Source: Bacteroidales bacterium
GTDB lineage: Bacteria > Bacteroidota > Bacteroidia > Bacteroidales > PUMT01
Reading direction: 5' to 3'
Length of the DNA: 64,000 nt
NCBI GenBank assembly: GCA_046483315.1
Contig: JAWODJ010000114.1
Location: forward strand, 4,241 to 68,240
The position numbers and the translations under genes are program-made. This document shows positions 52,192 to 64,000 of this stretch, piece by piece. Positions within the stretch are counted from its first letter, which is position 1. Every line of letters starts with the position of its first letter. The notes under the pieces are model-generated. The model worked only from the letters and a program-made list of their open reading frames with translations, did no database searches and was not told where the DNA came from.

Positions 52192-53376
52192 CTATATGTA
52201 TTCAATGATGACCTCTTTCAGGAATTTCTCTTCCAGCTTGCGTGCGATCCGTTTCAGTACCGTTCGTCTTATCTCAAGCTCTACCGGAAGGTTAGGGTCC
52301 TGGTGTGCAATATTTATCTTTGTTCCGATAATTATTTTTATCTCATCACTCTCCAGCAGCAGTCTTACTATCTGATCAGCCGGCCCCTTACCGGGCACGT
52401 AATTCTGGTTGTACTCATTAAGTATTTTTGAGACTTTACTGAGCGTCAGTATACCTTCGGTTACAAGATCAATGCCTTCCATATATGAAACGGGCGGCAG
52501 TTCGGGGTCATGGAACTCAAAGGTGTCTTTTATGCTGATGTTGAATTCCCGGGCAACAATATCGCCGGTGGTGCCGCCCGACAGGATCTTCTTTCCCTGA
52601 AATTCCTTTACTATTGCAGCCAGTTTACTGTCATTATCCTCATCAAAGGGCGGACCGCTGCAGAGAAGAAGTTTCCTGGGCTGGCGGAAATACAGGACGG
52701 CACATGATGTATCATCCTGGGCATTGTAATTGTCGTTTTTGAATGCAGCATTGAGTATTCTTGCGGCAAGTTTCTGTGCCGAAATATCGGACTGTTGTTC
52801 AATTATATCTGCTATAAACTTGTGTACATTTTCCCATCCCCACCCGAAAGGGTATTTTCGGGATCCCATGCCCGACTGGGTGATCCCATCAGAGCAGATA
52901 ATGATCCTGTCTTCCTTGCGGGGATGAAAATGGCAGCTTTTTATCTCTTTCCCTTTGTTTTTTTCTGAGCTGAGTATAAGGCAGTTCCATTCGGCATCAA
53001 GAGGCTTGCTTCCTCTCATAAGAAAAGAGCCCGGGTTGTCATATTCCAGTATGCTGGTTCTTGCACTCATCTCTATATCTACAGCGGTAAAGGTGGAATA
53101 ACTTATTTTTCTTACACTGCAGACCGGGAGAGTGTTCATTATGATCTCAGATATACGGGTTACATCTTTGTGTTCCCTGGTGAAATTCATTGCCATTGAT
53201 GCGGTAAGGGTCGCCAGGATATTAGCTTTCACCCCGTGTCCCATGCCATCTGAAAGAACGGCGACAATCCTGTTCTCCTCCTTTATTCTCTGTGACAGGA
53301 AAACATCACCGCAGATCCTCTCTTTACCGTGATTTTTTTGCTGGTACCCCACTTCCACATAGAAGTTATTATCCAT
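52192..53376 (-). CDS. PP2C/SpoIIE-type serine phosphatase with an unassigned ~160-aa C-terminal domain
   Basis: 394 aa. Metal-binding motifs CGDVF, LSDGMGHG, CSDGI, DDTSCAVL in residues 1-230. C-terminal part (ILSGGTTGDIVAREF...) unassigned. The start overlaps the upstream sensor gene's stop by 8 nt. Confidence 0.75.
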   Translation of the reverse strand: MDNNFYVEVGYQQKNHGKERICGDVFLSQRIKEENRIVAVLSDGMGHGVKANILATLTASMAMNFTREHKDVTRISEIIMNTLPVCSVRKISYSTFTAVDIEMSARTSILEYDNPGSFLMRGSKPLDAEWNCLILSSEKNKGKEIKSCHFHPRKEDRIIICSDGITQSGMGSRKYPFGWGWENVHKFIADIIEQQSDISAQKLAARILNAAFKNDNYNAQDDTSCAVLYFRQPRKLLLCSGPPFDEDNDSKLAAIVKEFQGKKILSGGTTGDIVAREFNISIKDTFEFHDPELPPVSYMEGIDLVTEGILTLSKVSKILNEYNQNYVPGKGPADQIVRLLLESDEIKIIIGTKINIAHQDPNLPVELEIRRTVLKRIARKLEEKFLKEVIIEYI

Positions 53377-55237
53377 TCTTTTCCGGTTTTTGAGGCATTT
53401 GATAAGATTCTATAATGCTGTTAAGCATAGCTTCGGTCTCTGAGGCACCTTCGCCCAGAAGGAATCCTATCTTCTGGACCAGTTCAAGGTTTTTGTCAAT
53501 TACATCGGTAACCCTTTTTATTACCTCTTCCTTTCTTACTTCCGGTACATAGAGATCTCTTATAACGGCACCGACAATCTTGTTTTTCCTTATGGTGAAT
53601 ATTGAAACATTATAGAGAATATCATTGAAATGGACATCACGGTTAACAATATTGTCATCATTTGTCAGGACATATGAGAAAAGGTTGTGGAAGTTGTACG
53701 GCAGAAGGGTTTTTAGGTCAGCGCCCTCGAGTCCGGGAATTACATCCTCAATCATTTTCACCTCTTCGTCCAGGATATTTATAAAGCTTTTGTTGGCCTG
53801 GATCACCTTCAGTTCATTATCAACCAATACTATGCTTGACGGGAGTTTCTCAAGCATTGTACGGGTGGTTTCAAAAGATTCTCTTGCAAGCTGCTGGTCA
53901 CGCCTTGCATTTTTTTCCGATTTTTTAAGTGCTGCCTGGGTTTCAGCCAGTTTCTGGTTGGTATCCCTGAGAGTCTTTATGTAGTCATGACGGTTTTTAA
54001 GGGTGAAGGTGAGGCACATTTCCGTTTTTGCAAGTCCCTGTGCCACTGCTACCGCGAAATCCCTGCAGGAAGTGTAACCACAGGATGCGCAGCCTATCTC
54101 ATCAACGTTGTGTTCTTTGCCAATAATCTGCAGTATCTCCTGAATCTTGTCTTCATCCGGGTATGGCAGTCTCTGATCATCCTTCTTAAATTTTCTTGAC
54201 AGGTCAAGATTGCTGAATTCATCCATCGCTGCTTCCCATTCCTTCATATCAAAGTCCGAAAGCCTTTTTTTAGCATAATCCACAACAAGGGCGTGACGCA
54301 GGTATTTATCACCTCCTCCTGAGGTGCCGGGTCCCATAATGCATCCTTCATTGTAAAACAGGTTGAAATGCTTTTTGATTGAATCGATATGTTTTTCAAA
54401 TTGTCTGACCGCTTCAAGCATGTTGTTTCTTCCCTCTGCAGTGATTACATTACCGGAGAGCAGATTCTGATCTATGCCGGAAGCTTCCAGTATGCCCGTA
54501 CTTATGGGGTAAATGGAACCCTTATAGCCTATCGGAGGATCAAAATCCGATAACTCCACTTTCTTTTCAGTGATCTTGAATTCGGCGAAAAGTTCCCGTA
54601 ATTCGGAAAAGGTGAGAACTGAATCAATTCTGCCGTCATCACGGTATTTTTTTCCCTCTTTTTTGGTTTCAATACAGGGTCCTATATACACAACCTTTAG
54701 GTCCTTTCCGTATTTTTTTCTTGCCACTTTTGCTGTGGCTCCCATGGGAGACACTATGGGAGCAAGATTTTCGGTCAGCTCAGGATGGAATTTTTCTATG
54801 TAGGAAACCACCGACGGACAGTTGGCACTAATGTAATATTTACCTTTGAATCCTGTGAACAGCTCATGATATTTTCTGGCCACCAGATCTACTCCGAAAG
54901 AGGCTTCAAGCACGTAATCAAAGCCAAGTGCCCTTATCATTTCCACAAATTTCCTGTAATCGGTTATGTCATGGAACTCTCCTGATATACTGGGTCCGCA
55001 GATTGCAGCAACCTTGTTTTTTGAATTTAGCAGGGTTTTTGTTTCCTCTCTGGAATCGCTGTAGCTTATTGCCCCGGGAGAGCAAACTTTCAGGCAGTGA
55101 CCGCAACCAATGCATGTATTGGATATTACCTCCGGATAATCCTGGTGAGCCTCAACTTTTATAGCATTTACCGGACATATTCTGACGCAGGCATATGAAA
55201 GGTTACATTTTTCTTTGTCAATATTTATAAGGGCCAT
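53369..55237 (-). CDS. Sensory-type [FeFe]-hydrogenase-like protein with C-terminal PAS domain (HydS-like, phosphatase-linked class)
   Basis: 622 aa. N-terminal 2x ferredoxin motifs, then a Fe-hydrogenase large-subunit-like domain (ISANCPSVV, YIGPCIETKKE, NEGCIMGPG). Extra Cys motif CASCGYTSCx16C, a coiled region, and a PAS-like block (LPSSIVLVDNELKVIQANKSF...). Confidence 0.8.
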   Translation of the reverse strand: MALINIDKEKCNLSYACVRICPVNAIKVEAHQDYPEVISNTCIGCGHCLKVCSPGAISYSDSREETKTLLNSKNKVAAICGPSISGEFHDITDYRKFVEMIRALGFDYVLEASFGVDLVARKYHELFTGFKGKYYISANCPSVVSYIEKFHPELTENLAPIVSPMGATAKVARKKYGKDLKVVYIGPCIETKKEGKKYRDDGRIDSVLTFSELRELFAEFKITEKKVELSDFDPPIGYKGSIYPISTGILEASGIDQNLLSGNVITAEGRNNMLEAVRQFEKHIDSIKKHFNLFYNEGCIMGPGTSGGGDKYLRHALVVDYAKKRLSDFDMKEWEAAMDEFSNLDLSRKFKKDDQRLPYPDEDKIQEILQIIGKEHNVDEIGCASCGYTSCRDFAVAVAQGLAKTEMCLTFTLKNRHDYIKTLRDTNQKLAETQAALKKSEKNARRDQQLARESFETTRTMLEKLPSSIVLVDNELKVIQANKSFINILDEEVKMIEDVIPGLEGADLKTLLPYNFHNLFSYVLTNDDNIVNRDVHFNDILYNVSIFTIRKNKIVGAVIRDLYVPEVRKEEVIKRVTDVIDKNLELVQKIGFLLGEGASETEAMLNSIIESYQMPQKPEKNG

Positions 55238-55242
55238 ATTAT

Positions 55243-55494
55243 TTATCTTATACTTAACGATTGTGTAAGTATTTTAACTACCTCTTCCGGTTTGACTCCT
55301 TCAAAAATTTTATCTCCTATTTTCAGAACAGGGCCTTTCTCACATCTGTCAAAGCAACGGCTTCCGTGAAAGAAAAATTTATCTTCCAGGTTGTGATCTT
55401 TAAGAAATTTTTCAATAATGCCCATACAAATCCTGTTTCCTCTTGAGAAGCATGAACTGCCAAGGCAGATAACTATTTCCTGTTTGTCCTGCAT
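55243..55494 (-). CDS. Thioredoxin-like [2Fe-2S] ferredoxin
   Basis: 83 aa from the internal ATG (MQDKQEIVICLGSSCFSRGN...GSRCFDRCEKGPV), with four Cys in the NuoE/Trx-like ferredoxin pattern. The track start at 55584 adds 30 hydrophobic residues, abuts the operator palindrome and contains a -7 box, so the shorter form is preferred. Confidence 0.6.
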   Translation of the reverse strand: MQDKQEIVICLGSSCFSRGNRICMGIIEKFLKDHNLEDKFFFHGSRCFDRCEKGPVLKIGDKIFEGVKPEEVVKILTQSLSIR

Positions 55495-55548
55495 TAATCG
55501 CGGGTTGATTTTTTTAGTAAGTAAGACAACAAATACCTGACATGTAAG

Positions 55549-55556
55549 CAAAAGTA
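55549..55556 (-). promoter_or_regulatory. -7 box TACTTTTG (minus strand) for the sensor/phosphatase operon
   Basis: Plus-strand CAAAAGTA. About 55 nt upstream of the ATG at 55494. Confidence 0.3.
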
Positions 55557-55585
55557 ATAAATATTTTAAAGAAATACATGTCATT

Positions 55586-55613
55586 AAACATTGTTAAATT
55601 TGTAACAATGTTT
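55586..55613. promoter_or_regulatory. Candidate Rex operator: AAACATTGTTA-AATTTG-TAACAATGTTT
   Basis: Perfect 11-bp inverted arms. The core TTGTTA-N6-TAACAA has the same half-sites and spacing as the TTGTTAAnnnnTTAACAA variant of the Rex box. The spacer carries TAAATTTG, a plus-strand -7 box (55595-55602). rex lies at the end of the same cluster. Confidence 0.55.
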
Positions 55614-55632
55614 GCATAATAACAATAAATTT

Positions 55633-55653
55633 TTGTAAAATTGTGTTTTACAA
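55633..55653. promoter_or_regulatory. Second palindrome TTGTAAAA-TTGTG-TTTTACAA
   Basis: 8-bp perfect arms, 39 nt upstream of the hydC ATG. Half-sites are Rex-like (TTGTnAA) but the spacing is 3 nt longer than the consensus. Confidence 0.3.
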
Positions 55654-55691
55654 GTAATATTTTCAATTATTCCGGTTAATAATAATTCATT

Positions 55692-56156
55692 ATGGATGAA
55701 AGGACATCCCTTATTCTTTCGCATTATCCGAAGGGACACCGTGATTTTTTAATACCAATATTGCAGGATATTCAGGAGCAATATGGTTATTTATCAGAAT
55801 CCTCCGTCATTGAAGTAGGTAATTACCTCGATCTTCCTTCAAGTAAGATATTTGGTCTGGCTACCTTTTATAACCAGTTCCGTTTTGAACCCAGGGGACG
55901 TTTTCACATACGTCTCTGTCACGGGACCACCTGTCATGTAAATAATTCCGGTAACATTCTGAAGGAGCTGAAAAAGATATTAGGGATCAATCCGGGCGAG
56001 ACCACAAGGGACGGAATGTACAGCCTGGAAATTGCAGCTTGTATGGGAGCATGTCATTTGTCTCCGCTAATTCAGGTAAACGATCAGTATCATACAAAAA
56101 TTGAACCTGAAAGTATCAGGGATATATTGGATTCTTATACAGAAGGGGAAGAATAG
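55692..56156 (+). CDS. hydC: [FeFe]-hydrogenase NuoE-like [2Fe-2S] subunit (HydC)
   Basis: 154 aa. LCHGTTCH ... CMGACHLSP cysteine pattern of the NuoE/HydC family. Confidence 0.85.
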   Translation: MDERTSLILSHYPKGHRDFLIPILQDIQEQYGYLSESSVIEVGNYLDLPSSKIFGLATFYNQFRFEPRGRFHIRLCHGTTCHVNNSGNILKELKKILGINPGETTRDGMYSLEIAACMGACHLSPLIQVNDQYHTKIEPESIRDILDSYTEGEE

Positions 56157-56158
56157 CT

Positions 56159-58111
56159 ATGTCTGCAAAAATCCATATACCGGTAGATAAGGATTATTTT
56201 GTTACAAATGTCCTTATGAACGAGTCGGTTGAGCTTCCTGCTGATGTGGAAAAGACCCTTGAATATGTGCGAAGGGATAGAGTTAAATATCCCGTGATCT
56301 TTGTTGGTACAGGAAGTTGCGGAATAATATCGGGTGCAGGGGAAACTCTTGATGAAACAAACAGATATTTGACTGAAAGAAACATAAAAGCTGATGTTGT
56401 TGAGACAGGCTGTACAGGTTTTTGTTCCATGGAACCGTTGGTGGAAGTTCAGTTACCCGGAAAAACAAGAGTGGCGTTCAGCCATGTTACCGCCGATAAA
56501 CTTCCCTATATACTTGACGGTATGTTCAACAGTATTGTACCCGGGGAATTTGTTTTAGGGCAGCATAAAAGTTCATCGGTGGAATTATGGAAAGATGTGC
56601 CTTTTATCGATGAGTTGCCTTTTTATTCCTTGCAATACAGGAACCTTATGAAAAACTGGGGCCGCATAAGTCCTTTCTCAATAGAAGAATACATTGCAAC
56701 AGGAGGTTACAGGTCATATATAAAAACAATAAGGAACTATACACACGAGGAGGCCTGCGATATTGTTGAAAAAAGCGGTCTTCTGGGCAGAGGCGGTGGC
56801 GGGTTTCTTACGGGAAAAAAGTGGAAGGTGGCACATTCTGTAATGACAGATCAGCGCTACCTGTTGTGCAATGCAAATGAAAGCGACCCCGGGGGATTTG
56901 CCAACAGGGCACTTATTGAAAGTGATCCACACAGACTTATTGAAGGGGTTATTATAGCTGCATATGCAATAGGCACATCCAAAGCCTATATTTATATCCG
57001 CAATGATTACATAACAGCAATTGCCAGGCTGGAGGAAGCCATAGAACAGGCAAAGGATTACGGGTTGCTCGGACATAATGTATACGGCAGCGGTGTTAAT
57101 ATTGATATTATTGTAAGAAAAGGTCCGGGTGCATTTGTTTGCGGTGAAGAAACTGCCATGATCAGCAGTATAGAAGGCAAACGTGGCATGCCCGGTCCAA
57201 AACCCCCTTATCCTGCTGTTTCTGGGTTGTTTGGCAAACCCACCGTGGTGAATAATGTAGAAACGCTGTCAAATGTTCCTTCGATCTTTGAAAACGGCCC
57301 GGACTGGTTTATGTCTGTTGGCAGTGAGTCATCAAAGGGGACCAAGATACTGGTGCTATCCGGAAGAGTTCATAATCAGGGTATAATAGAGGTGCCTCTC
57401 GGAACAAAAGTGAAGGATCTTATATTTTATGCAGGAGGGGGGGTGCCCGGCAGGAAAAGTTTCAAAGCCGTGCAGATTGGCGGGCCTTCAGGTGGATTTC
57501 TGACAGGAGAAAACATTGATATACCCTATGACTTTGAATCACTTGCGGGAGAGGACGTCTATATGGGATCGGGTGGGATGATTGTGCTTGATGAAGATTG
57601 CTGTATAATTGATACGGTAAAATACTTTATGGATTTCATCCAGAATGAAAGCTGTGGTAAATGCATTCCCTGCCGGGAAGGGACTCGCCGGATGCTGGAG
57701 GTCTATGAAAATATTACAAAACGGCCGGTAGACGAAAACGGACATTCCACACTTGAGCGGTTTAAGGGTGTAATGCAACTTGAAAGCCTGGCCGGTGTTA
57801 TTAAAGATACTTCTTTGTGCGGACTCGGACAGAAGGCACCGAACCCGGTTATCAGTTCACTTAAGTATTTCCGGAGTGAATATGAAGAGCATATTTTTGA
57901 CCGCAAATGCAGTGCAGGCGTATGCACTGAACTCAGATTGTTTTATATTGATGTGGATAAATGTACCGGTTGTACAGCTTGTGCAACAAAATGCCCTGTT
58001 TCTGCAATAATTGGTACAAAGCATCACCCTTTCTTCATTGTAGAGGAAAAGTGCATTGGCTGTGGCATATGTTATGATGTTTGCAAGTTCAGCGCCATTG
58101 GATTTAAATAA
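56159..58111 (+). CDS. hydB: [FeFe]-hydrogenase NuoF-like flavoprotein subunit (HydB)
   Basis: 650 aa. N-terminal Trx-like 2Fe-2S domain, FMN/NADH site GRGGGGFLTGKKW, 4Fe-4S ESCGKCIPCREG, and C-terminal 2x ferredoxin motifs (CTGCTACATKCP, CIGCGICYDVC). Confidence 0.9.
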   Translation: MSAKIHIPVDKDYFVTNVLMNESVELPADVEKTLEYVRRDRVKYPVIFVGTGSCGIISGAGETLDETNRYLTERNIKADVVETGCTGFCSMEPLVEVQLPGKTRVAFSHVTADKLPYILDGMFNSIVPGEFVLGQHKSSSVELWKDVPFIDELPFYSLQYRNLMKNWGRISPFSIEEYIATGGYRSYIKTIRNYTHEEACDIVEKSGLLGRGGGGFLTGKKWKVAHSVMTDQRYLLCNANESDPGGFANRALIESDPHRLIEGVIIAAYAIGTSKAYIYIRNDYITAIARLEEAIEQAKDYGLLGHNVYGSGVNIDIIVRKGPGAFVCGEETAMISSIEGKRGMPGPKPPYPAVSGLFGKPTVVNNVETLSNVPSIFENGPDWFMSVGSESSKGTKILVLSGRVHNQGIIEVPLGTKVKDLIFYAGGGVPGRKSFKAVQIGGPSGGFLTGENIDIPYDFESLAGEDVYMGSGGMIVLDEDCCIIDTVKYFMDFIQNESCGKCIPCREGTRRMLEVYENITKRPVDENGHSTLERFKGVMQLESLAGVIKDTSLCGLGQKAPNPVISSLKYFRSEYEEHIFDRKCSAGVCTELRLFYIDVDKCTGCTACATKCPVSAIIGTKHHPFFIVEEKCIGCGICYDVCKFSAIGFK

Positions 58112-58138
58112 TTTCGGGGAACTGCTAATAATTGAGTA

Positions 58139-59863
58139 ATGATTGTTAAGATTGAAGTCAATAACAGAGTAATAAAGGCTAAAAAGGGAGAAACCATTAT
58201 GTCTGCCCTCAGTGCAAACGGAATAAAGATACCTTCAATCTGCGCCATGAAGGATTTCTCCCCAACCGGTGCATGCAGAATGTGTGTTGTGGAGATTGAA
58301 GGCAGGCAGGGCCTTGTACCTTCCTGTTCCCAGCCGGTTAATGAGTGGATGAAGATCCGGACACATTCTCCCCGTGTTATTAAATCCAGAAAGACCATTG
58401 TGGAGCTGCTTCTTTCCAATCATCCTGATGATTGTCTCTATTGTGTCAGGAATGGCAAATGTGAGCTTCAGGATCTGGCAGAGGAACTTGGTGTAAGAGA
58501 GCGCCGCATAACGGGAAAAAAGAATAAATACAAACTTGACCATTCCAGTCCCTCAATTGTGCGTGATCCCGCCAAATGTATACTTTGCGGACGATGTGTA
58601 CGTGTTTGTGAGGATAAGTTATCAGTATCCGCAATTGATTTTGTTAATCGCGGAAACAATGCAATCATAGGTACGGCATATAATAAAGACCTTAATTTTT
58701 CCAGTTGTATAAACTGCGGGCAGTGCATTATGGTTTGCCCTACGGGGGCCCTTTATGAAAAAGACAGTCTTCCGGAACTTGAAGATGCCCTCAATAACCC
58801 GGATAAGTATGTGATAGCGCAATATGCCCCTTCGGTTACCGTCACACTGGCCGAGGAATTCGGGATCAAACCCGGAAAGGATGTCGGTGGATTGATAAAC
58901 GCTGCGCTGAGGAAGATCGGGTTTAACCGGATTTTTGATACCTCTTTTGCAGCTGACCTGACTGTAATGGAGATGTCGCATGAACTTCTTAAAAGAAACG
59001 ACCAGAAAGAAAAATATCCTCTGATTTCCGGATGCTGTCCCGCATGGGTAAAATTTGCCGAGCAATGGTACCCTGATCTTTTGCCGGCCGTTTCCTCCTG
59101 TAAATCACCGCAACAAATGCTGGGTGCGGTTTTAAAGGCCTATTATCCTGAAATGTCTGATATTGATTCAGACAATATCTTTTCAGTTGCAGTGGCTCCG
59201 TGTACGGCCAAAAAGTTTGAAGCCCAGAGAGAAGAGATGACCAAAAAGGGGTTGTCAGATATTGATGCCGTGCTTACAACCAGGGAACTTGCCAGACTGA
59301 TAAGGCTTTATGGTATCGATATGAATCAGATTGAACCGGAAGCAACCGATGAACCCTTCGGAATGAGAAGTTCGGCCGGAAAATTGTTCGGTGCAGCCGG
59401 GGGCATGACCGAGGCCCTTATGCGGACTCTGCCTTATGTTGCAGGATCAAAAGATCTTTCCCGGGTTAAGTTTCAGGAATTGCGCGGTGCAAAGGCGCTG
59501 AAGAAGGCAGATATTAAGATTGGCAGGAACTGTTTCAGTTTTGCTGTTGTAAGTGGAATGTCAAATGCCATAGCACTGCTTGAAGAGATAAGGGAAGGTA
59601 AAAGTGAGTACGATTTTATTGAAATTATGGCTTGTGCAGGAGGTTGCATTAATGGCGGAGGACAGCCCATAGGAGCGGATGAACATGCCGTACGGGCAAG
59701 GATGAAGGCTTTGTACGGCATTGATGACCAGGAGGCCATAAGGTATTCCCATAAGAATCAGGGAGTTGCTGAATTATATAAAAATTATCTTGGCCGGCCC
59801 ATGGGGGATGATTGTAAACAATTACTGCATACCAGTTATTCAGAAAGAAAAGTTCTGTTATAG
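58139..59863 (+). CDS. hydA: [FeFe]-hydrogenase catalytic subunit (HydA, multimeric NuoG-like N-terminus type)
   Basis: 574 aa. N-terminal 2Fe-2S, a His-ligated cluster motif (HPDDCLYCVRNGKCELQ), and two ferredoxin clusters. H-cluster motifs SGCCPAW, APCTAKKFEA, EIMACAGGCINGGGQP. Confidence 0.9.
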   Translation: MIVKIEVNNRVIKAKKGETIMSALSANGIKIPSICAMKDFSPTGACRMCVVEIEGRQGLVPSCSQPVNEWMKIRTHSPRVIKSRKTIVELLLSNHPDDCLYCVRNGKCELQDLAEELGVRERRITGKKNKYKLDHSSPSIVRDPAKCILCGRCVRVCEDKLSVSAIDFVNRGNNAIIGTAYNKDLNFSSCINCGQCIMVCPTGALYEKDSLPELEDALNNPDKYVIAQYAPSVTVTLAEEFGIKPGKDVGGLINAALRKIGFNRIFDTSFAADLTVMEMSHELLKRNDQKEKYPLISGCCPAWVKFAEQWYPDLLPAVSSCKSPQQMLGAVLKAYYPEMSDIDSDNIFSVAVAPCTAKKFEAQREEMTKKGLSDIDAVLTTRELARLIRLYGIDMNQIEPEATDEPFGMRSSAGKLFGAAGGMTEALMRTLPYVAGSKDLSRVKFQELRGAKALKKADIKIGRNCFSFAVVSGMSNAIALLEEIREGKSEYDFIEIMACAGGCINGGGQPIGADEHAVRARMKALYGIDDQEAIRYSHKNQGVAELYKNYLGRPMGDDCKQLLHTSYSERKVLL

Positions 59864-59907
59864 CCGGAAACCTGAAAAAAGAATCCCGTCTGTCTTAATT
59901 ATAATTT

Positions 59908-61899
59908 ATGTATTCTTCACATGATCATAAAAAACTTCTAATAACCCTCAAGGACCGGTGCCGGGTATGTTATACATGTGTGCGTGAGTGCCCTGCCAGG
60001 GCAATAAAGATAATTAACGGTCAGGCAGAGGTGCTGAATGAACGTTGTATAGGATGTGGTAACTGTACCCGTGTATGCAGTCAGGGTGCCAAGGTTTACA
60101 GCCGGTCGGGACCGGAGGTTACCGGTTTACTGGAATCTCCGGGAAGGGTTGCAGCAATTGTAGCACCCAGTTTTCCTGCCGAATTCACAGAAATTGAAGA
60201 TTACCGGCAATTTGTCGGTATGATGAGAAAACTTGGATTTGACAATGTTTATGAGGTTGGTTTCGGGGCGGACCTTGTTGCACTGGAATATAAAAAAATA
60301 CTTGAGGAAAAAGGTAATAAAAGGTATATATCATCTGACTGTCCGGCTATTGTAAATTATATAAGGCAATACCACCCTGACCTTGTTCCTTCACTGGCAG
60401 GTATAGTTTCTCCAATGGTGGCAATGAGCAGGGTTGTCAGGAAAAAACTCGGGAATGATATTAAAATTGTTTTCACCGGACCATGTGTTGCCAAAAAGGA
60501 AGAGTCGGATGAAGTTGATGAAGTGCTTACATTTGCCGAGCTGAGAGAGATGTTCAGTAAAAGGGATATTGCCCCCGCCGGTATCAGTTCGTCCGAATTC
60601 GATCCTCCGGCGGCAGGTAAGGGTGCTGTTTTTCCTATCAGCAGGGGACTTTTGCAGACTGTTGATATTAAAGATAATGCCTTTGAAGGGAACATAATAG
60701 TTGCCGAGGGCAGAGAAGATTTCCAGGAAGCAATAAAAGAGTTCGAAGCAGGGCTGATAGGCGGGCAACATCTGGAACTTCTTTGCTGCGAAGGCTGCAT
60801 AATGGGGCCGGGAATGTCGGAGGGAGGCAGGCATTATGTAAGAAGATCTGTTGTAAGCAATTATGTAAGAGAAAAGATAAAGAATTATGACAGGGCAGAA
60901 TGGCAAAAAAGCATTGATGAATTCGGGAGGTTAGACCTGAGATGTAAATTTGAACCTGATGATCAAAGGTTGCCTGTTCCTTCGGTGGCAGAGATTAAGA
61001 AGGAGCTTGAGAAGATGGGTAAGTTTGATGCCAGGGATTTTCTGAATTGCGGTGCATGTGGTTATGAAACCTGTGAAGAGCATGCAATAGCTATAATAGA
61101 GGGACTGGCAGAGGTTGAAATGTGTCTGCCCATGACAATAGATAAACTTCACAATTCGGTTAATGACCTGGCCGTCACCAATGAAAAGCTTGTTTCAGTT
61201 CAGCAGGCACTTAAGCAGTCAGAGAAAATGGCCAGCATGGGTCAGTTATCGGCCGGCATAGCTCATGAGTTGAATAACCCTCTTGGCGTGGTAATAATGT
61301 ATTCCAATATTATGCTTGATGAGCTGCCAAAGAATTCGGAGGCATATCCTGATTTGAAGCTCATCGTTGAGCAGGCCAACAGGTGTAAGAAGATTGTTGG
61401 CGGATTGCTGAATTTTGCCCGTAAAAACCAGGTAAATCCTGCTGATGTTGACCTGGAGAGACTTGTGAGGCAGGCATTGGATGCCATTATTATTCCGCGT
61501 AATATAAAGGTTGAAATTGATCCGGACGGAATAAATAAGAAAACTGCCCGGCTTGATTCGGAACAGATAATACAGGCCCTGACCAATTTGTTTAAGAATG
61601 CTCTTGAGGCTATGCCTGATGGTGGGGAGCTCAGAGTGGATATAAAGGATGATAACGGAAAGACAGAGTTCCATATATCTGATACAGGAACCGGTATCAG
61701 GGAAGAGGACAGGGAGAAAATATTTGAACCCTTTTATACCACAAAGGGTATTGGTAAAGGAACCGGACTGGGTCTGGCAACGACATACGGGATAGTTAAA
61801 ATGCATAACGGGCAGATCAGTGTAATATCCAATGCGGATCCGGAAAAGGGACAGACAGGGACAAAGTTCATTGTCACACTTCCTGATAACAATGTTTAA
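59908..61899 (+). CDS. Hydrogenase-like sensor domain fused to a histidine kinase (HydS-like, histidine-kinase-linked class)
   Basis: 663 aa. 2x CxxCxxCxxxC ferredoxin motifs, H-domain-like motifs ISSDCPAIV, TGPCVAKKEE, LLCCEGCIMGPG, and extra CGACGYETCx16C. Then HisKA H-box SAGIAHELNNPLG, N-box LFKNALEAM, G-boxes ISDTGTGI and GTGLGLA. Confidence 0.8.
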   Translation: MYSSHDHKKLLITLKDRCRVCYTCVRECPARAIKIINGQAEVLNERCIGCGNCTRVCSQGAKVYSRSGPEVTGLLESPGRVAAIVAPSFPAEFTEIEDYRQFVGMMRKLGFDNVYEVGFGADLVALEYKKILEEKGNKRYISSDCPAIVNYIRQYHPDLVPSLAGIVSPMVAMSRVVRKKLGNDIKIVFTGPCVAKKEESDEVDEVLTFAELREMFSKRDIAPAGISSSEFDPPAAGKGAVFPISRGLLQTVDIKDNAFEGNIIVAEGREDFQEAIKEFEAGLIGGQHLELLCCEGCIMGPGMSEGGRHYVRRSVVSNYVREKIKNYDRAEWQKSIDEFGRLDLRCKFEPDDQRLPVPSVAEIKKELEKMGKFDARDFLNCGACGYETCEEHAIAIIEGLAEVEMCLPMTIDKLHNSVNDLAVTNEKLVSVQQALKQSEKMASMGQLSAGIAHELNNPLGVVIMYSNIMLDELPKNSEAYPDLKLIVEQANRCKKIVGGLLNFARKNQVNPADVDLERLVRQALDAIIIPRNIKVEIDPDGINKKTARLDSEQIIQALTNLFKNALEAMPDGGELRVDIKDDNGKTEFHISDTGTGIREEDREKIFEPFYTTKGIGKGTGLGLATTYGIVKMHNGQISVISNADPEKGQTGTKFIVTLPDNNV

Positions 61900-61917
61900 C
61901 TATTATAATAATCAGAA

Positions 61918-62316
61918 ATGATGAATGATCACAAAAGGACAATTCTTCTGGTAGATGATGATGAGGATTATCTTTTTCAGACCAAACTTAATATCGAACA
62001 GTTTGGTTTCAGGGTCGTAACAGCTGAAAGCCAGGCAGAGGCTGAAAAACTGCTGGAGGCATTAAAGCCCGATCTTGCAATACTTGATCTGATGATGGAG
62101 AATGAGGACAGCGGTTTTATACTTGCTTTCAAAATGAAAAAAAGGTATCCCGATGTTCCGGTTATCATTGCAACAGCCGTAACTGCTGAAACAGGAATCT
62201 CCTTTGGGGTCAGTTCGGAGGAGGAAAGGAAATGGATCAGAGCCGACAAGTATATAGAAAAGGGGATAAGAGCCGATCAGCTTCATAAAGAGATCATTAA
62301 ACTGTTAAAGATTTAG
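61918..62316 (+). CDS. Stand-alone response-regulator receiver (CheY-like)
   Basis: 132 aa. LLVDDDED, acceptor context DLAILDLMM, IIATAV, and a conserved Lys region YIEKG. No output domain. Confidence 0.85.
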   Translation: MMNDHKRTILLVDDDEDYLFQTKLNIEQFGFRVVTAESQAEAEKLLEALKPDLAILDLMMENEDSGFILAFKMKKRYPDVPVIIATAVTAETGISFGVSSEEERKWIRADKYIEKGIRADQLHKEIIKLLKI

Positions 62317-62317
62317 G

Positions 62318-63436
62318 ATGGAAAAGCTTCATGTACTTGTGGTGGATGATGAGCCGGGAATATGTTCCGGCATAAGCAGGATATTGACAAAATATTCGGT
62401 GGGTTTTCCCTTTATGGATGAAAATATCGGCTTTGAAATCCAGGAAACATTTACCGGTGAGGACGCTATTAAGATAATTGACAGTAAGGCGCCTGATATT
62501 GTTCTTCTGGACAATAAGCTGCCTGGAATACTTGGAATAGATGTGCTTGAGTATATTAATAAAAAACGTCTTGAGTCGGTGGTATTGATGATAACATCGT
62601 ATGCATCTCTCGAATTGGCTGTAAAGGCCACTAATCAGGGTGCACATGATTTTATTCCCAAACCGTTCACACCCCAGGAACTCAGGTCGGCCATTGAAAA
62701 TGTCACCAAGCATATTTTCCTGAAAAGGATGACAAAAAAGCTTAACAGGGAAGGCAAACAGATCAGATTCCAGTTTCTGTCGGTACTTTCACATGAGCTG
62801 AAAGCACCACTGAATGCCATTGAAGGTTATCTCAGAATCATGCAGGACAGGCAGGCAGGAAATGATCTGGATGCTTACACAAAGATAATTGAACGTTCGC
62901 TTGTGCGTGTAAAGGGCATGAGAAACCTGATAATGGACCTGCTCGATATTACAAAGATAGAATCCGGTAAAAAGAGAAGGATGGTAGTACCTGTAAATAT
63001 TACCGGGATTGCTAAAATTTCAATAGACACAATGGGGCCGATATCAATCCAGAAAGATGTGAAAATATACCTGGATGCTCCTGAAGAGGTTAGTTTTGAT
63101 GCCGATCAGGAAGAGATCGAAATCATTTTCAATAACCTGCTTTCCAATGCTATAAAATATAATATTGAAGGAGGAAAGGTTGACTTCAGAATTGAAGACA
63201 AAAAAGAGAAGATCATTGTTTCTGTCAGGGATACGGGAATTGGTATGGGGAAGGATGAGATTCCGGCACTTTTTGATGAATTTGTCCGTATCAAAAATGA
63301 GCAGACAAAGAATATTTCAGGAAGCGGACTTGGTTTGTCGATTGTGAAAAAACTGGTCCGTCTTTATAAGGGGAGAATTAATGTGGAAAGCAGGCCGGGA
63401 GAAGGAAGTATCTTTAAAATTGAGTTTCCCAGATGA
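62318..63436 (+). CDS. Receiver-histidine kinase hybrid (REC-HisKA-HATPase)
   Basis: 372 aa. VLVVDDEPG, DIVLLDNKLPG, FIPKPF. H-box LSVLSHELKAPLNAI, N-box LLSNAIKYN, G-boxes VRDTGIGM and GSGLGLSI. Starts 2 nt after the preceding stop. Confidence 0.85.
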   Translation: MEKLHVLVVDDEPGICSGISRILTKYSVGFPFMDENIGFEIQETFTGEDAIKIIDSKAPDIVLLDNKLPGILGIDVLEYINKKRLESVVLMITSYASLELAVKATNQGAHDFIPKPFTPQELRSAIENVTKHIFLKRMTKKLNREGKQIRFQFLSVLSHELKAPLNAIEGYLRIMQDRQAGNDLDAYTKIIERSLVRVKGMRNLIMDLLDITKIESGKKRRMVVPVNITGIAKISIDTMGPISIQKDVKIYLDAPEEVSFDADQEEIEIIFNNLLSNAIKYNIEGGKVDFRIEDKKEKIIVSVRDTGIGMGKDEIPALFDEFVRIKNEQTKNISGSGLGLSIVKKLVRLYKGRINVESRPGEGSIFKIEFPR

Positions 63437-63466
63437 CATATTAATAGTTAAATTAAATATTTATTG

Positions 63467-64000
63467 ATGAAGCTACCCGGAAAAACCATCGAAAGACTGA
63501 GCCAGTACAGGAGGATACTTCTGAACTGTCTCAGCATGGGTAAAACCTATATCTATTCACATGAGCTTGCAGAAATGCTAAACCTTACGGCGGTTCAGGT
63601 AAGAAGGGATATAATGTTGATGGGATACTCCACCAGTCATAAGAAAGGTTACGATATCAGTGAGCTGGTCAATGTTATAGGTTCTATCCTTGATACACGT
63701 AAAGGTCAGAATGTCGCTGTTATAGGAGTTGGCAACCTCGGCAGGGCAATAACCGGATATTTTATGGGTAAACGCTCCAGGCTTAATATCATTGCTACTT
63801 TTGATAATGATCCTGCAAAAGTTAACAGGGTTATCTCAGGTGTTAACTGTTATCCGGTCCAGCAGCTGGCTGACCGTATAAGGGAACTTAATATTACAAT
63901 TGCCATTCTTACTGTTCCCCCCGAACATGCCGCCGGTGTTGCTGAGTCTCTGGTACTGGCGGGCATAAAAGGCATCCTCAATTTCACTTCTGTCCCGCTG
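63467..64000 (+). CDS. rex: Redox-sensing transcriptional repressor Rex (partial; runs off the right edge)
   Basis: Not in the ORF track because it is truncated. Hand translation MKLPGKTIERLSQYRRILLNCLSMGKTYIYSHELAEMLNLTAVQVRRDIMLMGY...VAVIGVGNLGRAITGY...TIAILTVPPEHA...GIKGILNFTSVPL. Winged helix plus a Rossmann GxGxxG, typical of Rex. Confidence 0.85.
   Translation, partial: MKLPGKTIERLSQYRRILLNCLSMGKTYIYSHELAEMLNLTAVQVRRDIMLMGYSTSHKKGYDISELVNVIGSILDTRKGQNVAVIGVGNLGRAITGYFMGKRSRLNIIATFDNDPAKVNRVISGVNCYPVQQLADRIRELNITIAILTVPPEHAAGVAESLVLAGIKGILNFTSVPL

What the first reader, a model, noticed from the sequence alone, without database searches (positions are those of the whole stretch)
59908..61899. 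H-cluster-domain protein fused in one polypeptide to a histidine kinase, with Asp at the proton-relay cysteine position
Seen: residues 1-60 carry two complete CxxCxxCxxxC ferredoxin motifs. Residues about 80-330 carry hydrogenase H-domain-like motifs SSDCP (nt 60331-60345), GPCVAKKEE and LLCCEGCIMGPG (Cys codons at 60784-60798). A Cx2Cx4Cx16C motif follows, then a complete HisKA/HATPase module. When I align the motifs by eye to the HydA in this same window (SGCCPAW / APCTAKKFE / MACAGGC), all four cysteines that ligate the [4Fe-4S]H subcluster are retained. The first Cys of the CCP pair, which is the proton-relay Cys299 in Clostridium pasteurianum CpI numbering, is Asp (codon GAC at 60337-60339). 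The Met preceding the PC motif is Gly. Loss of the relay Cys and of that Met are hallmarks reported for sensory HydS. An Asp at the relay position is notable because Cys-to-Asp variants of catalytic enzymes are reported to keep proton transfer. A direct H2-sensor-to-kinase fusion is a testable one-component-like H2 input into a phosphorelay.
Basis: partly seen in the sequence, partly recalled or inferred. Interest (0 to 1): 0.75.

Follow-up and report, generated by a model that had tools for sequence, protein, structure and literature searches.

The report
Hydrogen-sensor domain fused to histidine kinase
This gene encodes a hydrogenase-like iron-sulfur sensor joined directly to a histidine kinase, a computationally recognised but untested class of putative hydrogen sensors; its one new detail is an aspartate at a key active-site position, conserved across one Bacteroidota lineage.

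Summary
ORF 59908..61899 (+), 663 aa, contains two ferredoxin-type motifs, an [FeFe]-hydrogenase H-domain, a Cx2Cx4Cx16C motif and a complete HisKA/HATPase kinase with no PAS domain. Three alignments put Asp144 in the column of CpI Cys299. The four H-cluster cysteines (C145, C193, C294, C297) and Lys196 (CpI K358) are invariant among relatives.

The headline is not new. Histidine-kinase-linked putative sensory [FeFe]-hydrogenases are HydDB Group C1. Fused versions next to HydABC and Rex have been described from genomes. I found none characterised biochemically.

The Asp is a real lineage trait. It is present in 119 of the 120 closest clusters and in 37 of 39 related GTDB loci, down to 53% identity. 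It is absent from 140 full-length representatives of the wider family, which carry mostly Ala, Pro, Thr, Ser or Cys.

The rest of the canonical proton path is gone (E279 to Tyr, S319 to Ala, R286 deleted). The last two cluster cysteines are spaced Cx2C, not Cx3C as in CpI and TmHydS.

The gene sits in a conserved hydC-hydB-hydA-sensor-REC-REC/kinase array. Best reading: an H2-responsive kinase (confidence 0.6). It is a new member of a known kind, of moderate interest.

The parts
59908..61899 (+). Whole gene: HydS-type sensor domain fused to a histidine kinase (663 aa plus stop codon)
   Evidence: ORF list and translation; Pfam architecture; full-length homologues
59950..60090 (+). N-terminal 2x[4Fe-4S] ferredoxin-like domain (residues 15-61; C18/21/24/28 and C47/50/53/57)
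   Evidence: Pfam Fer4 families; motif search; all eight Cys invariant in alignment A1
60145..60810 (+). [FeFe]-hydrogenase H-domain (residues 80-301)
   Evidence: PF02906 E=1.8e-46. AF2 pLDDT is mostly about 80-96 over the H-domain, lower around residues 250-310. Foldseek top hits are HydABC, CpI and CbA5H, E about 1e-16 to 1e-18
60337..60339 (+). Asp144 codon (GAC), in the column of CpI Cys299 (proton-relay cysteine)
   Evidence: Conserved in 119/120 closest clusters and 37/39 GTDB loci, with both GAT and GAC in use
60340..60342 (+). Cys145 = CpI C300, H-cluster ligand
   Evidence: Alignments; invariant
60484..60486 (+). Cys193 = CpI C355, H-cluster ligand, within G191-P-C-V-A-K196-K-E-E199. 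Gly191 = M353 and Lys196 = K358
60787..60798 (+). Cys294-Glu-Gly-Cys297 = CpI C499...C503, with Cx2C spacing instead of Cx3C. Leu292 = M497
   Evidence: C294 and C297 invariant, C293 not; C293 is Ser in L014 and L016; 45/46 kinase-fused representatives have Cx2C
61048..61125 (+). C-terminal Cx2Cx4Cx16C motif (C381, C384, C389, C406), a putative fourth [4Fe-4S] site typical of group C/D HydS
   Evidence: PF04060; motif; literature
61126..61236 (+). Helical linker of about 37 residues between the C-terminal FeS motif and the kinase; no PAS, HAMP or GAF domain
   Evidence: No Pfam domain in this stretch. AF2 predicts helices 411-421, 425-441 and 446-472, at low confidence in the monomer model
61237..61428 (+). 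HisKA/DHp domain (residues 444-507); phospho-acceptor His453 at 61264-61266
   Evidence: PF00512; H-box HELNNP; PDB hits ZraS and KinB, E about 1e-29
61555..61887 (+). HATPase_c catalytic domain (residues 550-660) with N, G1, F and G2 boxes
   Evidence: PF02518 E=1.7e-24; motifs
55692..59863 (+). Upstream hydC (55692-56156), hydB (56159-58111) and hydA (58139-59863): group A3-type trimeric HydABC. The gap to the sensor gene is 44 nt
   Evidence: Pfam and NCBIfam; conserved synteny in about 36/39 loci
61918..62316 (+). Stand-alone receiver (REC) protein, 18 nt downstream: the probable phospho-acceptor
   Evidence: PF00072; syntenic in most loci
62318..63436 (+). REC-HisKA-HATPase hybrid kinase, 1 nt after the REC gene: a probable second tier of the relay
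   Evidence: Pfam; syntenic in 36 of 39 loci
63467..64000 (+). Rex-type redox-sensing repressor gene, cut off by the end of the window
   Evidence: Translation; Put_DNA-bind_N plus CoA_binding; syntenic in the near clade
55591..55608 (+). Rex-box-like palindrome TTGTTAAATTTGTAACAA, 84 nt upstream of hydC
   Evidence: The only match with up to 2 mismatches in 64 kb. A similar site lies upstream of the operon in 21/28 related loci. The consensus was recalled from the Clostridium Rex literature, not tested here

Best explanation
The gene encodes a cytoplasmic, one-polypeptide H2-responsive histidine kinase of the HydS type (HydDB [FeFe] Group C1).

Inferred mechanism:
1. The N-terminal part binds two ferredoxin-type [4Fe-4S] clusters.
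2. The H-domain binds an H-cluster through Cys145, Cys193, Cys294 and Cys297, installed by HydE/F/G.
3. H2 is split slowly at this site. Asp144 replaces the usual relay cysteine and most likely hydrogen-bonds to, and takes the proton from, the azadithiolate amine, as the carboxylate does in CpI C299D.
4. The downstream relay residues are missing (E279 to Tyr128, S319 to Ala164, R286 deleted). The proton therefore cannot leave quickly. Turnover is low and the reduced state is long-lived, which suits a sensor.
5. The redox or conformational change passes through the C-terminal Cx2Cx4Cx16C domain and a ~37-residue helical linker to the DHp helix. This changes autophosphorylation at His453.
6. The phosphoryl group goes to the adjacent stand-alone receiver and/or the receiver of the adjacent REC-kinase hybrid. 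These relay it to an output encoded elsewhere.

The sensor is probably co-transcribed with the bifurcating hydrogenase hydCBA, behind a Rex-box-like site. H2 pressure and NADH/NAD+ would then be read at one locus.

Shown here: domain architecture, column assignments, conservation and synteny.
Inferred: cofactor binding, H2 response, direction of kinase control and phosphotransfer partners.
For: - Architecture and intact kinase boxes.
- The H-domain fold is predicted with high confidence and matches [FeFe]-hydrogenases.
- Residues that hold the 2Fe subcluster in CpI are invariant across the clade: A86-P87-S88 (=A230/P231/S232), S168-P169 (=S323/P324), K196 (=K358), E199 (=E361) and F242 (=F417), plus the four Cys.
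- Internal control: the paralogous HydS2 in the same window has lost C499 (Asn) and K358 (Thr). These positions do drift when constraint is lifted.
- The Asp is under amino-acid-level selection: it is kept down to 53% identity with both codons in use.
- The hydC-hydB-hydA-sensor-REC-REC/HK order is conserved in about 36/39 species-level loci.
- HydG lies within 10 kb downstream in 19 loci, HydF in about 15.
- Intergenic gaps are 44, 18 and 1 nt.
- Literature: TmHydS and TamHydS, which lack C299, M353 and M497, still bind an H-cluster and react with H2 at low rates. TamHydS has Leu at 497, like this protein. In C299D the carboxylate hydrogen-bonds to the adt amine at 2.7 A.
Against: - I found no Group C1 or kinase-fused HydS that has been characterised biochemically.
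- The L3 loop is one residue shorter (Cx2C) than in CpI and TmHydS. I know of no characterised enzyme with this spacing. C297 would be the cysteine that bridges to the 2Fe site.
- In CpI the M497L variant failed to integrate the 2Fe subcluster properly.
- Authors studying Hydrogenedentota C1 proteins could hardly find the canonical H-cluster motifs.
- In TamHydS the C-terminal cluster is not reduced by H2, so the signalling route through that cluster is unsettled.
- No DNA-binding response regulator is encoded in the cluster, so the output is unknown.
- HydE/F/G are not in the window itself.
Confidence: 0.6

Rival explanations
1. It is an iron-sulfur redox-sensor kinase without a 2Fe subcluster. 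The H-domain keeps only a [4Fe-4S] cluster, as Nar1/NARF-type hydrogenase-like proteins do. The kinase reports the redox poise of the ferredoxin or electron pool, not H2.
For: The L3 spacing is non-canonical (Cx2C). M497 is Leu, which impaired 2Fe insertion in CpI. Published difficulty in finding H-cluster motifs in C1 proteins. The neighbouring paralogue HydS2 has clearly lost H-cluster ligands, so hydrogenase-like domains without a full H-cluster exist in this very locus.
Against: Residues that contact only the 2Fe subcluster in CpI, not the cubane, are invariant across 53-100% identity: K196, A86-P87-S88, S168-P169 and F242, plus a polar residue at position 299. The gene is tightly linked to hydABC and often to hydG/hydF. 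TamHydS has Leu497 and still binds the H-cluster.
Confidence: 0.15
2. It is a genuinely catalytic, slow hydrogenase whose Asp144 restores proton exchange. The kinase then responds to electron flux or to the H2/ferredoxin equilibrium. It would be a turnover-dependent sensor rather than a binding-type sensor, possibly acting as an accessory subunit of HydABC.
For: C299D is the only substitution at this position that keeps high activity in CpI and HydA1. Asp is strictly selected in this clade, while sister clades tolerate Thr, Ala or Pro. Arg246 (CpI G421) is invariant in the clade and tends to co-occur with polar residues at 299. An alternative proton path exists in TamHydS, so non-canonical paths are possible. 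Group C3 proteins have been drawn as a 'T subunit' of Bfu/HydABC.
Against: The canonical relay beyond position 299 is absent (Tyr128, Ala164, deletion at R286). No alternative path could be traced without coordinates. TmHydS A131C did not gain activity, so position 299 alone does not set the rate.
Confidence: 0.15
3. It senses another small molecule or stress (O2, CO or NO) through destruction or inhibition of its FeS or H-cluster cofactors.
For: H-clusters and [4Fe-4S] clusters are O2- and CO-reactive. TamHydS forms a distinct O2 product. The hosts are anaerobic Bacteroidota from sediments and digesters.
Against: The strictly conserved linkage is to hydABC and maturases, not to oxidative-stress genes. 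HydS-type enzymes are comparatively CO-tolerant. There is no specific evidence for this reading.
Confidence: 0.05

Closest known systems
HydDB [FeFe]-hydrogenase Group C1, 'histidine kinase-linked (putative)'. This includes the kinase-fused group C proteins described in Elusimicrobia and Hydrogenedentota, and the C1 gene next to hnd/hydABC in Petrimonas mucosa
   Same: A HydS-type H-domain associated with, or fused to, a histidine kinase. It lies next to a trimeric group A3 hydrogenase, and Rex is nearby. In my sample 46 of 150 family representatives carry a fused kinase, and 45 of those share the Cx2C L3 spacing.
   Different: This Bacteroidota lineage has Asp at the CpI C299 column. Other kinase-fused representatives have Pro, Thr, Ala, Ser, Asn or His. 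None of the papers I read mentions Asp at this position in natural enzymes.
Thermotoga maritima HydS (TmHydS; Group C, M2f), the characterised putative sensory [FeFe]-hydrogenase
   Same: N-terminal 2x[4Fe-4S] domain, H-domain with the four Cys, C-terminal Cx2Cx4Cx16C motif, M353 replaced by Gly, C299 and M497 not conserved, and a location beside HydABC.
   Different: TmHydS ends in a PAS domain, with no kinase. It has Ala131 at position 299 and Ser267 at 497. Its L3 spacing is the canonical Cx3C (primer-derived EASACYGSC). Here the corresponding features are Asp144, Leu292, Cx2C and a direct helical link to DHp.
Thermoanaerobacter mathranii HydS (TamHydS; Group D, M2e)
   Same: No PAS domain, Leu at 497, a C-terminal 4-Cys cluster, and a kinase-like ATPase gene adjacent.
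   Different: TamHydS has Ala at 299 and Ser at 353, and its kinase-like protein is a separate gene. Its proposed alternative proton path (E252/E289) is specific to group D and could not be mapped here.
Engineered C299D (CpI), C169D (CrHydA1) and C298D (CaI) variants of catalytic [FeFe]-hydrogenases
   Same: Asp at the same column. The best CpI sequence match in PDB is the C299D entry 6GLZ.
   Different: In those variants the rest of the relay (E279, S319, E282, R286) is intact, and activity stays at 30-80%. Here that relay is missing.
[NiFe] regulatory hydrogenases with their kinases (HoxBC-HoxJ-HoxA of Ralstonia/Cupriavidus; HupUV-HupT-HupR; HydDB [NiFe] Group 2b)
   Same: The functional logic is the same: a low-activity hydrogenase acts as an H2 sensor feeding a histidine kinase and a two-component relay (established knowledge).
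   Different: The metal site and fold are unrelated. Sensor and kinase are separate polypeptides joined through a PAS-containing kinase. This is an analogy, not homology.

Membership tests
[FeFe]-hydrogenase, putative sensory HydS type (Group C) | H-domain (PF02906) with the four H-cluster cysteines (CpI C300, C355, C499, C503) | tested here: met
   PF02906 E=1.8e-46. C145, C193, C294 and C297 align to these positions and are invariant. Caveat: the spacing of the last pair is Cx2C rather than Cx3C.
[FeFe]-hydrogenase, putative sensory HydS type (Group C) | [quoted passage not shown] | tested here: met
   definition from PMC8163306
[FeFe]-hydrogenase, putative sensory HydS type (Group C) | Non-conservation of C299, M353 and M497, and of the canonical proton-transfer residues | tested here: met
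   The replacements are D144, G191 and L292. E279 is Y128, S319 is A164 and R286 falls in a gap.
[FeFe]-hydrogenase, putative sensory HydS type (Group C) | PAS domain after the C-terminal cluster (M2f architecture, as in TmHydS) | tested here: not met
   No PAS hit at E<=0.01. Only about 37 residues separate C406 from the HisKA domain. This excludes M2f, but not Group C1.
[FeFe]-hydrogenase, putative sensory HydS type (Group C) | Binds an H-cluster and reacts with H2 at low turnover | not testable with these tools
   Needs expression, maturation and FTIR/EPR/activity assays.
HydDB [FeFe] Group C1 (histidine kinase-linked) | Association of the hydrogenase-like protein with a histidine kinase | tested here: met
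   HisKA and HATPase_c are fused in the same polypeptide. A second kinase gene lies 2 genes downstream.
HydDB [FeFe] Group C1 (histidine kinase-linked) | Assignment by the HydDB classifier (k-NN against reference sequences) | not tested
   HydDB is not available here. A Bacteroidales gene next to hnd was reported as C1, but I did not verify orthology with it.
HisKA-family sensor histidine kinases | H-box with phospho-acceptor His, and N, G1, F and G2 boxes | tested here: met
   H453ELNNP, N560, D592xGxG, F606xPF and G616xGxGL. PDB hits ZraS, KinB and HK853. Foldseek match to ZraS.
HisKA-family sensor histidine kinases | Autophosphorylation and transfer to a cognate receiver | not testable with these tools
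   Two receiver-containing genes are adjacent and syntenic. Partnership is inferred only.
Catalytic group A [FeFe]-hydrogenase | L1 TSCCPxW, L2 MPCxxKxxE and L3 ExMxCxxGCxxGGGQP, with an intact C299-E279-S319-E282-R286 relay | tested here: not met
   The sequence has SSDCPAI, GPCVAKKEE and ELLCCEGCIMGPG, and the relay is absent. It scores far below the NCBIfam cut-offs: TIGR02512 95.6 vs 405.95 and TIGR04105 189.8 vs 450.

The most novel reading that the evidence does not exclude
The Bacteroidota clade would be a natural 'C299D' sensor. Asp144, together with the clade-invariant Arg246 (CpI G421) and the family-wide Tyr128 (CpI E279), would form a closed proton-holding site next to the azadithiolate amine. 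This site would set the H2 threshold or the pH dependence of the signalling state. Because the sensor is fused directly to a kinase with no PAS domain, it would allow the first direct in vitro read-out (autophosphorylation) of H2 sensing by an [FeFe] site. It would also show that a Cx2C L3 loop can still carry an H-cluster.
Probability: 0.3. Interest if true: 0.6.

Novelty: new member of a known kind. Interest (0 to 1): 0.35.

Why it matters
H2 partial pressure governs fermentation balance in anoxic sediments, digesters and guts. How bacteria sense it through [FeFe]-type sensors is still unproven. Only two HydS enzymes have been studied (TmHydS and TamHydS). Neither has a built-in output whose activity can be measured.

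A kinase-fused HydS gives a simple biochemical read-out: His phosphorylation with and without H2. The natural Asp at the relay position gives a ready-made comparison with the well-studied C299D variants.

The value is as an experimental entry point to a known but untested class. It is not a new kind of system.

Tried and rejected
- Single-sequence AlphaFold2 of the full protein gave pLDDT 33 and was discarded. The run with alignment A1 was used instead.
- The sigma-70 promoter and terminator scan of 55200-64000 was at chance level, and it is not suited to Bacteroidota.
- A Rex-box search with the wrong spacer (N6) was at chance. The N4 form was then used.
- HydG and HydF were sought in the window by tblastn and not found. 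In the closest relatives hydG lies about 4 kb past the sensor gene, which would be beyond the window end.
- Greening et al. 2016 (ISME J), the source of the Group C definition, could not be retrieved.
- The sequence logo in the supplement of PMC10055695 is an image, so the published frequency of Asp at position 299 could not be read.
- A possible partner for Asp144 was sought through clade-specific columns. Arg246 and His288 stand out. The Arg also occurs with Thr, Asn and Ser in sister lineages, so the association may be phylogenetic. Without coordinates I could not test proximity.
- I asked whether C293 rather than C294 is the ligand, which would restore Cx3C. This was rejected because C293 is Ser in L014 and L016 and variable in the wider family, while C294 is invariant.
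Full report
1. WHAT IS THERE

The ORF at 59908..61899 (+) is intact and encodes 663 aa. Pfam finds, in order:
- a ferredoxin-type dicluster domain, residues 15-61
- the [FeFe]-hydrogenase large-subunit H-domain, PF02906, residues 80-301, E=1.8e-46
- the small 'FeS' domain PF04060, residues 379-408
- HisKA, residues 444-507
- HATPase_c, residues 550-660

Motif searches give two complete CxxCxxCxxxC motifs (C18-C28 and C47-C57). They also give a Cx2Cx4Cx16C motif (C381-C406) and all the kinase boxes: H453ELNNP, N560, DTGTG592, FEPF606 and GKGTGL616. There is no PAS domain. Only about 37 residues, predicted helical, separate the last cysteine from HisKA.

With a 63-sequence alignment, AlphaFold2 models most of the H-domain at pLDDT of about 80-96. 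Confidence is lower around residues 250-310. Foldseek returns HydABC, CpI and CbA5H for the N-terminal ~430 columns, and ZraS and HK853 for the C-terminal part.

2. COLUMN ASSIGNMENT

HMMER against PDB aligns 'yissDcpaiv' to CpI 'mftsCcpgwv' at maximal posterior probability. The top-scoring CpI entry is the C299D variant 6GLZ. I rebuilt CpI 138-509 from those alignments and aligned it with the window's own HydA, the second HydS-like protein and family members, using MAFFT L-INS-i (34 sequences; 154 sequences). Both runs give the same mapping.

| This protein | CpI position |
|---|---|
| D144 | C299 |
| C145 | C300 |
| G191 | M353 |
| C193 | C355 |
| K196 | K358 |
| E199 | E361 |
| F242 | F417 |
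| L292 | M497 |
| C294 | C499 |
| C297 | C503 |
| A86-P87-S88 | A230-P231-S232 |
| S168-P169 | S323-P324 |

The codon at 60337-60339 is GAC.

- The canonical relay beyond position 299 is gone. E279 is Tyr128, which is invariant. S319 is Ala164. R286 falls in a deletion. E282 is variable.
- The last two ligands are spaced Cx2C (C294-E-G-C297), whereas CpI has Cx3C. C293 cannot substitute for C294. It is Ser in two orthologues and variable in the wider family, while C294 is invariant.

3. HOW COMMON IS IT

The word-indexed search found 7577 proteins at E<=1e-20. Many of these probably match only the kinase part. The best 120 clusters (62-100% identity) are mostly labelled Bacteroidales or Bacteroidota MAGs. 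Nearly all have the same length and the same domain set. Of these, 119 carry (S/T)DCP.

A scan of GTDB species genomes found 39 loci with relatives at 53-86% identity. They come from Bacteroidales, Lentimicrobiaceae, Kapaibacteria and one bin labelled Leptospirales. Asp is seen in 37 of them. The other two are extraction artefacts. Both GAT (29) and GAC (9) codons are used.

The exhaustive search with residues 1-412 against 50%-identity representatives gave 900 proteins at E<=1e-30. Among the best 150, 46 have a fused kinase. Of the 150, 140 keep all four cysteines. None of those 140 has Asp at position 299. The counts are Ala 45, Pro 23, Thr 20, Ser 20, Cys 11, Asn 6 and others 15. The only two Asp representatives are fragments close to the query.

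The nearest non-Asp relatives are 51-53% identical and have Thr. One of them is from Caldithrix. So the kinase fusion is common and widespread. The Asp is a derived, strictly kept trait of one Bacteroidota-centred lineage.

The Cx2C spacing is shared by 45 of 46 kinase-fused representatives and by 45 others. TmHydS-like representatives have Cx3C. For TmHydS itself I derived the spacing from mutagenesis primers, which encode EAS(267)ACYGSC. The same ACYGSC motif occurs in representative P0223.

4. SURROUNDINGS

| Coordinates | Strand | Gene |
|---|---|---|
| 52192-53376 | - | PP2C/SpoIIE phosphatase |
| 53369-55237 | - | second HydS-like protein, with a PAS domain |
| 55243-55584 | - | thioredoxin-like [2Fe-2S] protein |
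| 55692-56156 | + | hydC |
| 56159-58111 | + | hydB |
| 58139-59863 | + | hydA |
| 59908-61899 | + | the sensor kinase |
| 61918-62316 | + | stand-alone REC |
| 62318-63436 | + | REC-HisKA-HATPase hybrid |
| 63467-end | + | Rex |

These assignments rest. The gaps around the target are 44, 18 and 1 nt.

The order hydC-hydB-hydA-sensor-REC-REC/HK recurs in about 36 of the 39 loci. hydG is within 10 kb downstream in 19 loci, and hydF in about 15. Neither maturase gene is in the window. In the closest relatives hydG lies about 4 kb past the sensor gene, which would be beyond the window end.

A Rex-box-like palindrome, TTGTTAAATTTGTAACAA, sits 84 nt upstream of hydC. It is the only match with up to 2 mismatches in the window. 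A similar site lies upstream of the operon in 21 of 28 loci, against 0-3 (6 in one locus) elsewhere per ~20 kb. I took the consensus from my recollection of the clostridial Rex literature, so this is a lead and not a test.

5. MECHANISM

The best reading is an H2-responsive kinase. The steps are set out under 'best explanation', with what is shown and what is inferred marked there. The main supports are these.
- Residues that contact only the 2Fe subcluster in CpI are invariant.
- The neighbouring paralogue serves as an internal control. It has lost C499 (Asn296) and K358 (Thr191), and this is shared by its orthologues down to 50% identity.
- The gene is tightly linked to hydABC and to the maturases.
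- TmHydS and TamHydS bind H-clusters despite similar substitutions, including Leu497 in TamHydS.

Asp144 most likely acts as a local hydrogen-bond partner and proton acceptor for the adt amine, as in the C299D structure (2.7 A). It is not part of a fast relay, because the relay is absent.

The route from H-cluster to kinase is uncertain. In TamHydS the C-terminal cluster is not reduced by H2. I therefore keep 'redox or conformational' open. The sign of regulation and the final output are unknown. No DNA-binding regulator is encoded in the cluster.

6. COMPARISON AND NOVELTY

HydDB defines [FeFe] Group C1 as 'histidine kinase-linked (putative)'. A Bacteroidales C1 gene next to hnd has been noted. 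Kinase-fused group C proteins have been described beside HydABC and Rex in Elusimicrobia. They have also been described in Hydrogenedentota. Metagenomic surveys routinely count C1.

The literature on position 299 in sensory enzymes lists Ala ~43%, Cys 17%, Pro ~10% and Ser ~10%, or says 'mostly alanine'. I found no mention of a natural Asp. I also found no biochemical study of any C1 protein.

The gene is therefore a new member of a known, uncharacterised kind. It adds two modest points: a lineage-specific natural 'C299D', and the Cx2C loop shared by the kinase-fused lineage.

7. VERDICT

- Observation: confirmed.
- Interpretation: partly supported.
- Interest: 0.35. A specialist would find the Asp clade a useful detail and the protein a convenient experimental handle, but not a surprise.

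Noticed in passing
window 53369..55237 (-), with 52192..53376 (-): A second HydS-like gene (622 aa, weak PAS hit) overlaps the start of a PP2C/SpoIIE phosphatase gene, in a HydDB C3-like arrangement. It has Asn at CpI C299, Thr at K358 and Asn296 at C499 (FNLFYNEGC), so one of the four H-cluster cysteines is missing. Its first ferredoxin motif is C-N-L-S-Y-A-C (Cys to Ser). Orthologues at 84-88% identity, and one at 50%, share the YNEGC loss. It is probably a hydrogenase-like sensor without a canonical H-cluster.
   Followed up: partly
window 58139..59863 (+): The catalytic A3 HydA has Met at the CpI E279 column (FAADLTVMEMSHE) and Ala at M353 (APCTAKKFE). Orthologues at 73-78% identity share E279 to Met/Leu and M353 to Ala/Thr. 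More distant ones (44-61% identity) have the canonical MEE..E and MPCTAKKFE. E278 is kept, so a one-residue shift of the relay Glu is possible.
   Followed up: partly
window 55591..55608 (+); upstream of the hyd operon in L002-L039: A Rex-box-like palindrome, TTGTTAAATTTGTAACAA, lies 84 nt upstream of hydC, and a Rex gene follows the operon at 63467 onward. A similar site occurs upstream of the operon in 21/28 related loci. This suggests NADH/NAD+ control of the whole hydCBA-sensor operon.
   Followed up: partly
L011 13593..16241 and 18 other loci: hydG (radical SAM plus BATS) and hydF follow the REC-kinase gene directly in many relatives. In the window's closest relatives hydG lies about 4 kb past the sensor gene, just beyond where the window ends.
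   Followed up: yes
window 60643..60645 (Arg246 codon): Arg246 sits at the CpI G421 column, in the FGATGGV loop near the H-cluster, and is invariant in the Asp clade. Across the family, Arg here tends to accompany polar residues at 299 (Thr, Ser, Asn, Asp), while Gly accompanies Ala or Pro. The association may be functional or merely phylogenetic.
   Followed up: partly
L011 5235..5756 and the equivalent position in L013, L014 and L016: In Lentimicrobiaceae-type and Kapaibacteria-type loci an extra receiver-domain protein (174 aa in L011) precedes hydC. There the Rex-box-like sites lie upstream of that gene instead.
   Followed up: no
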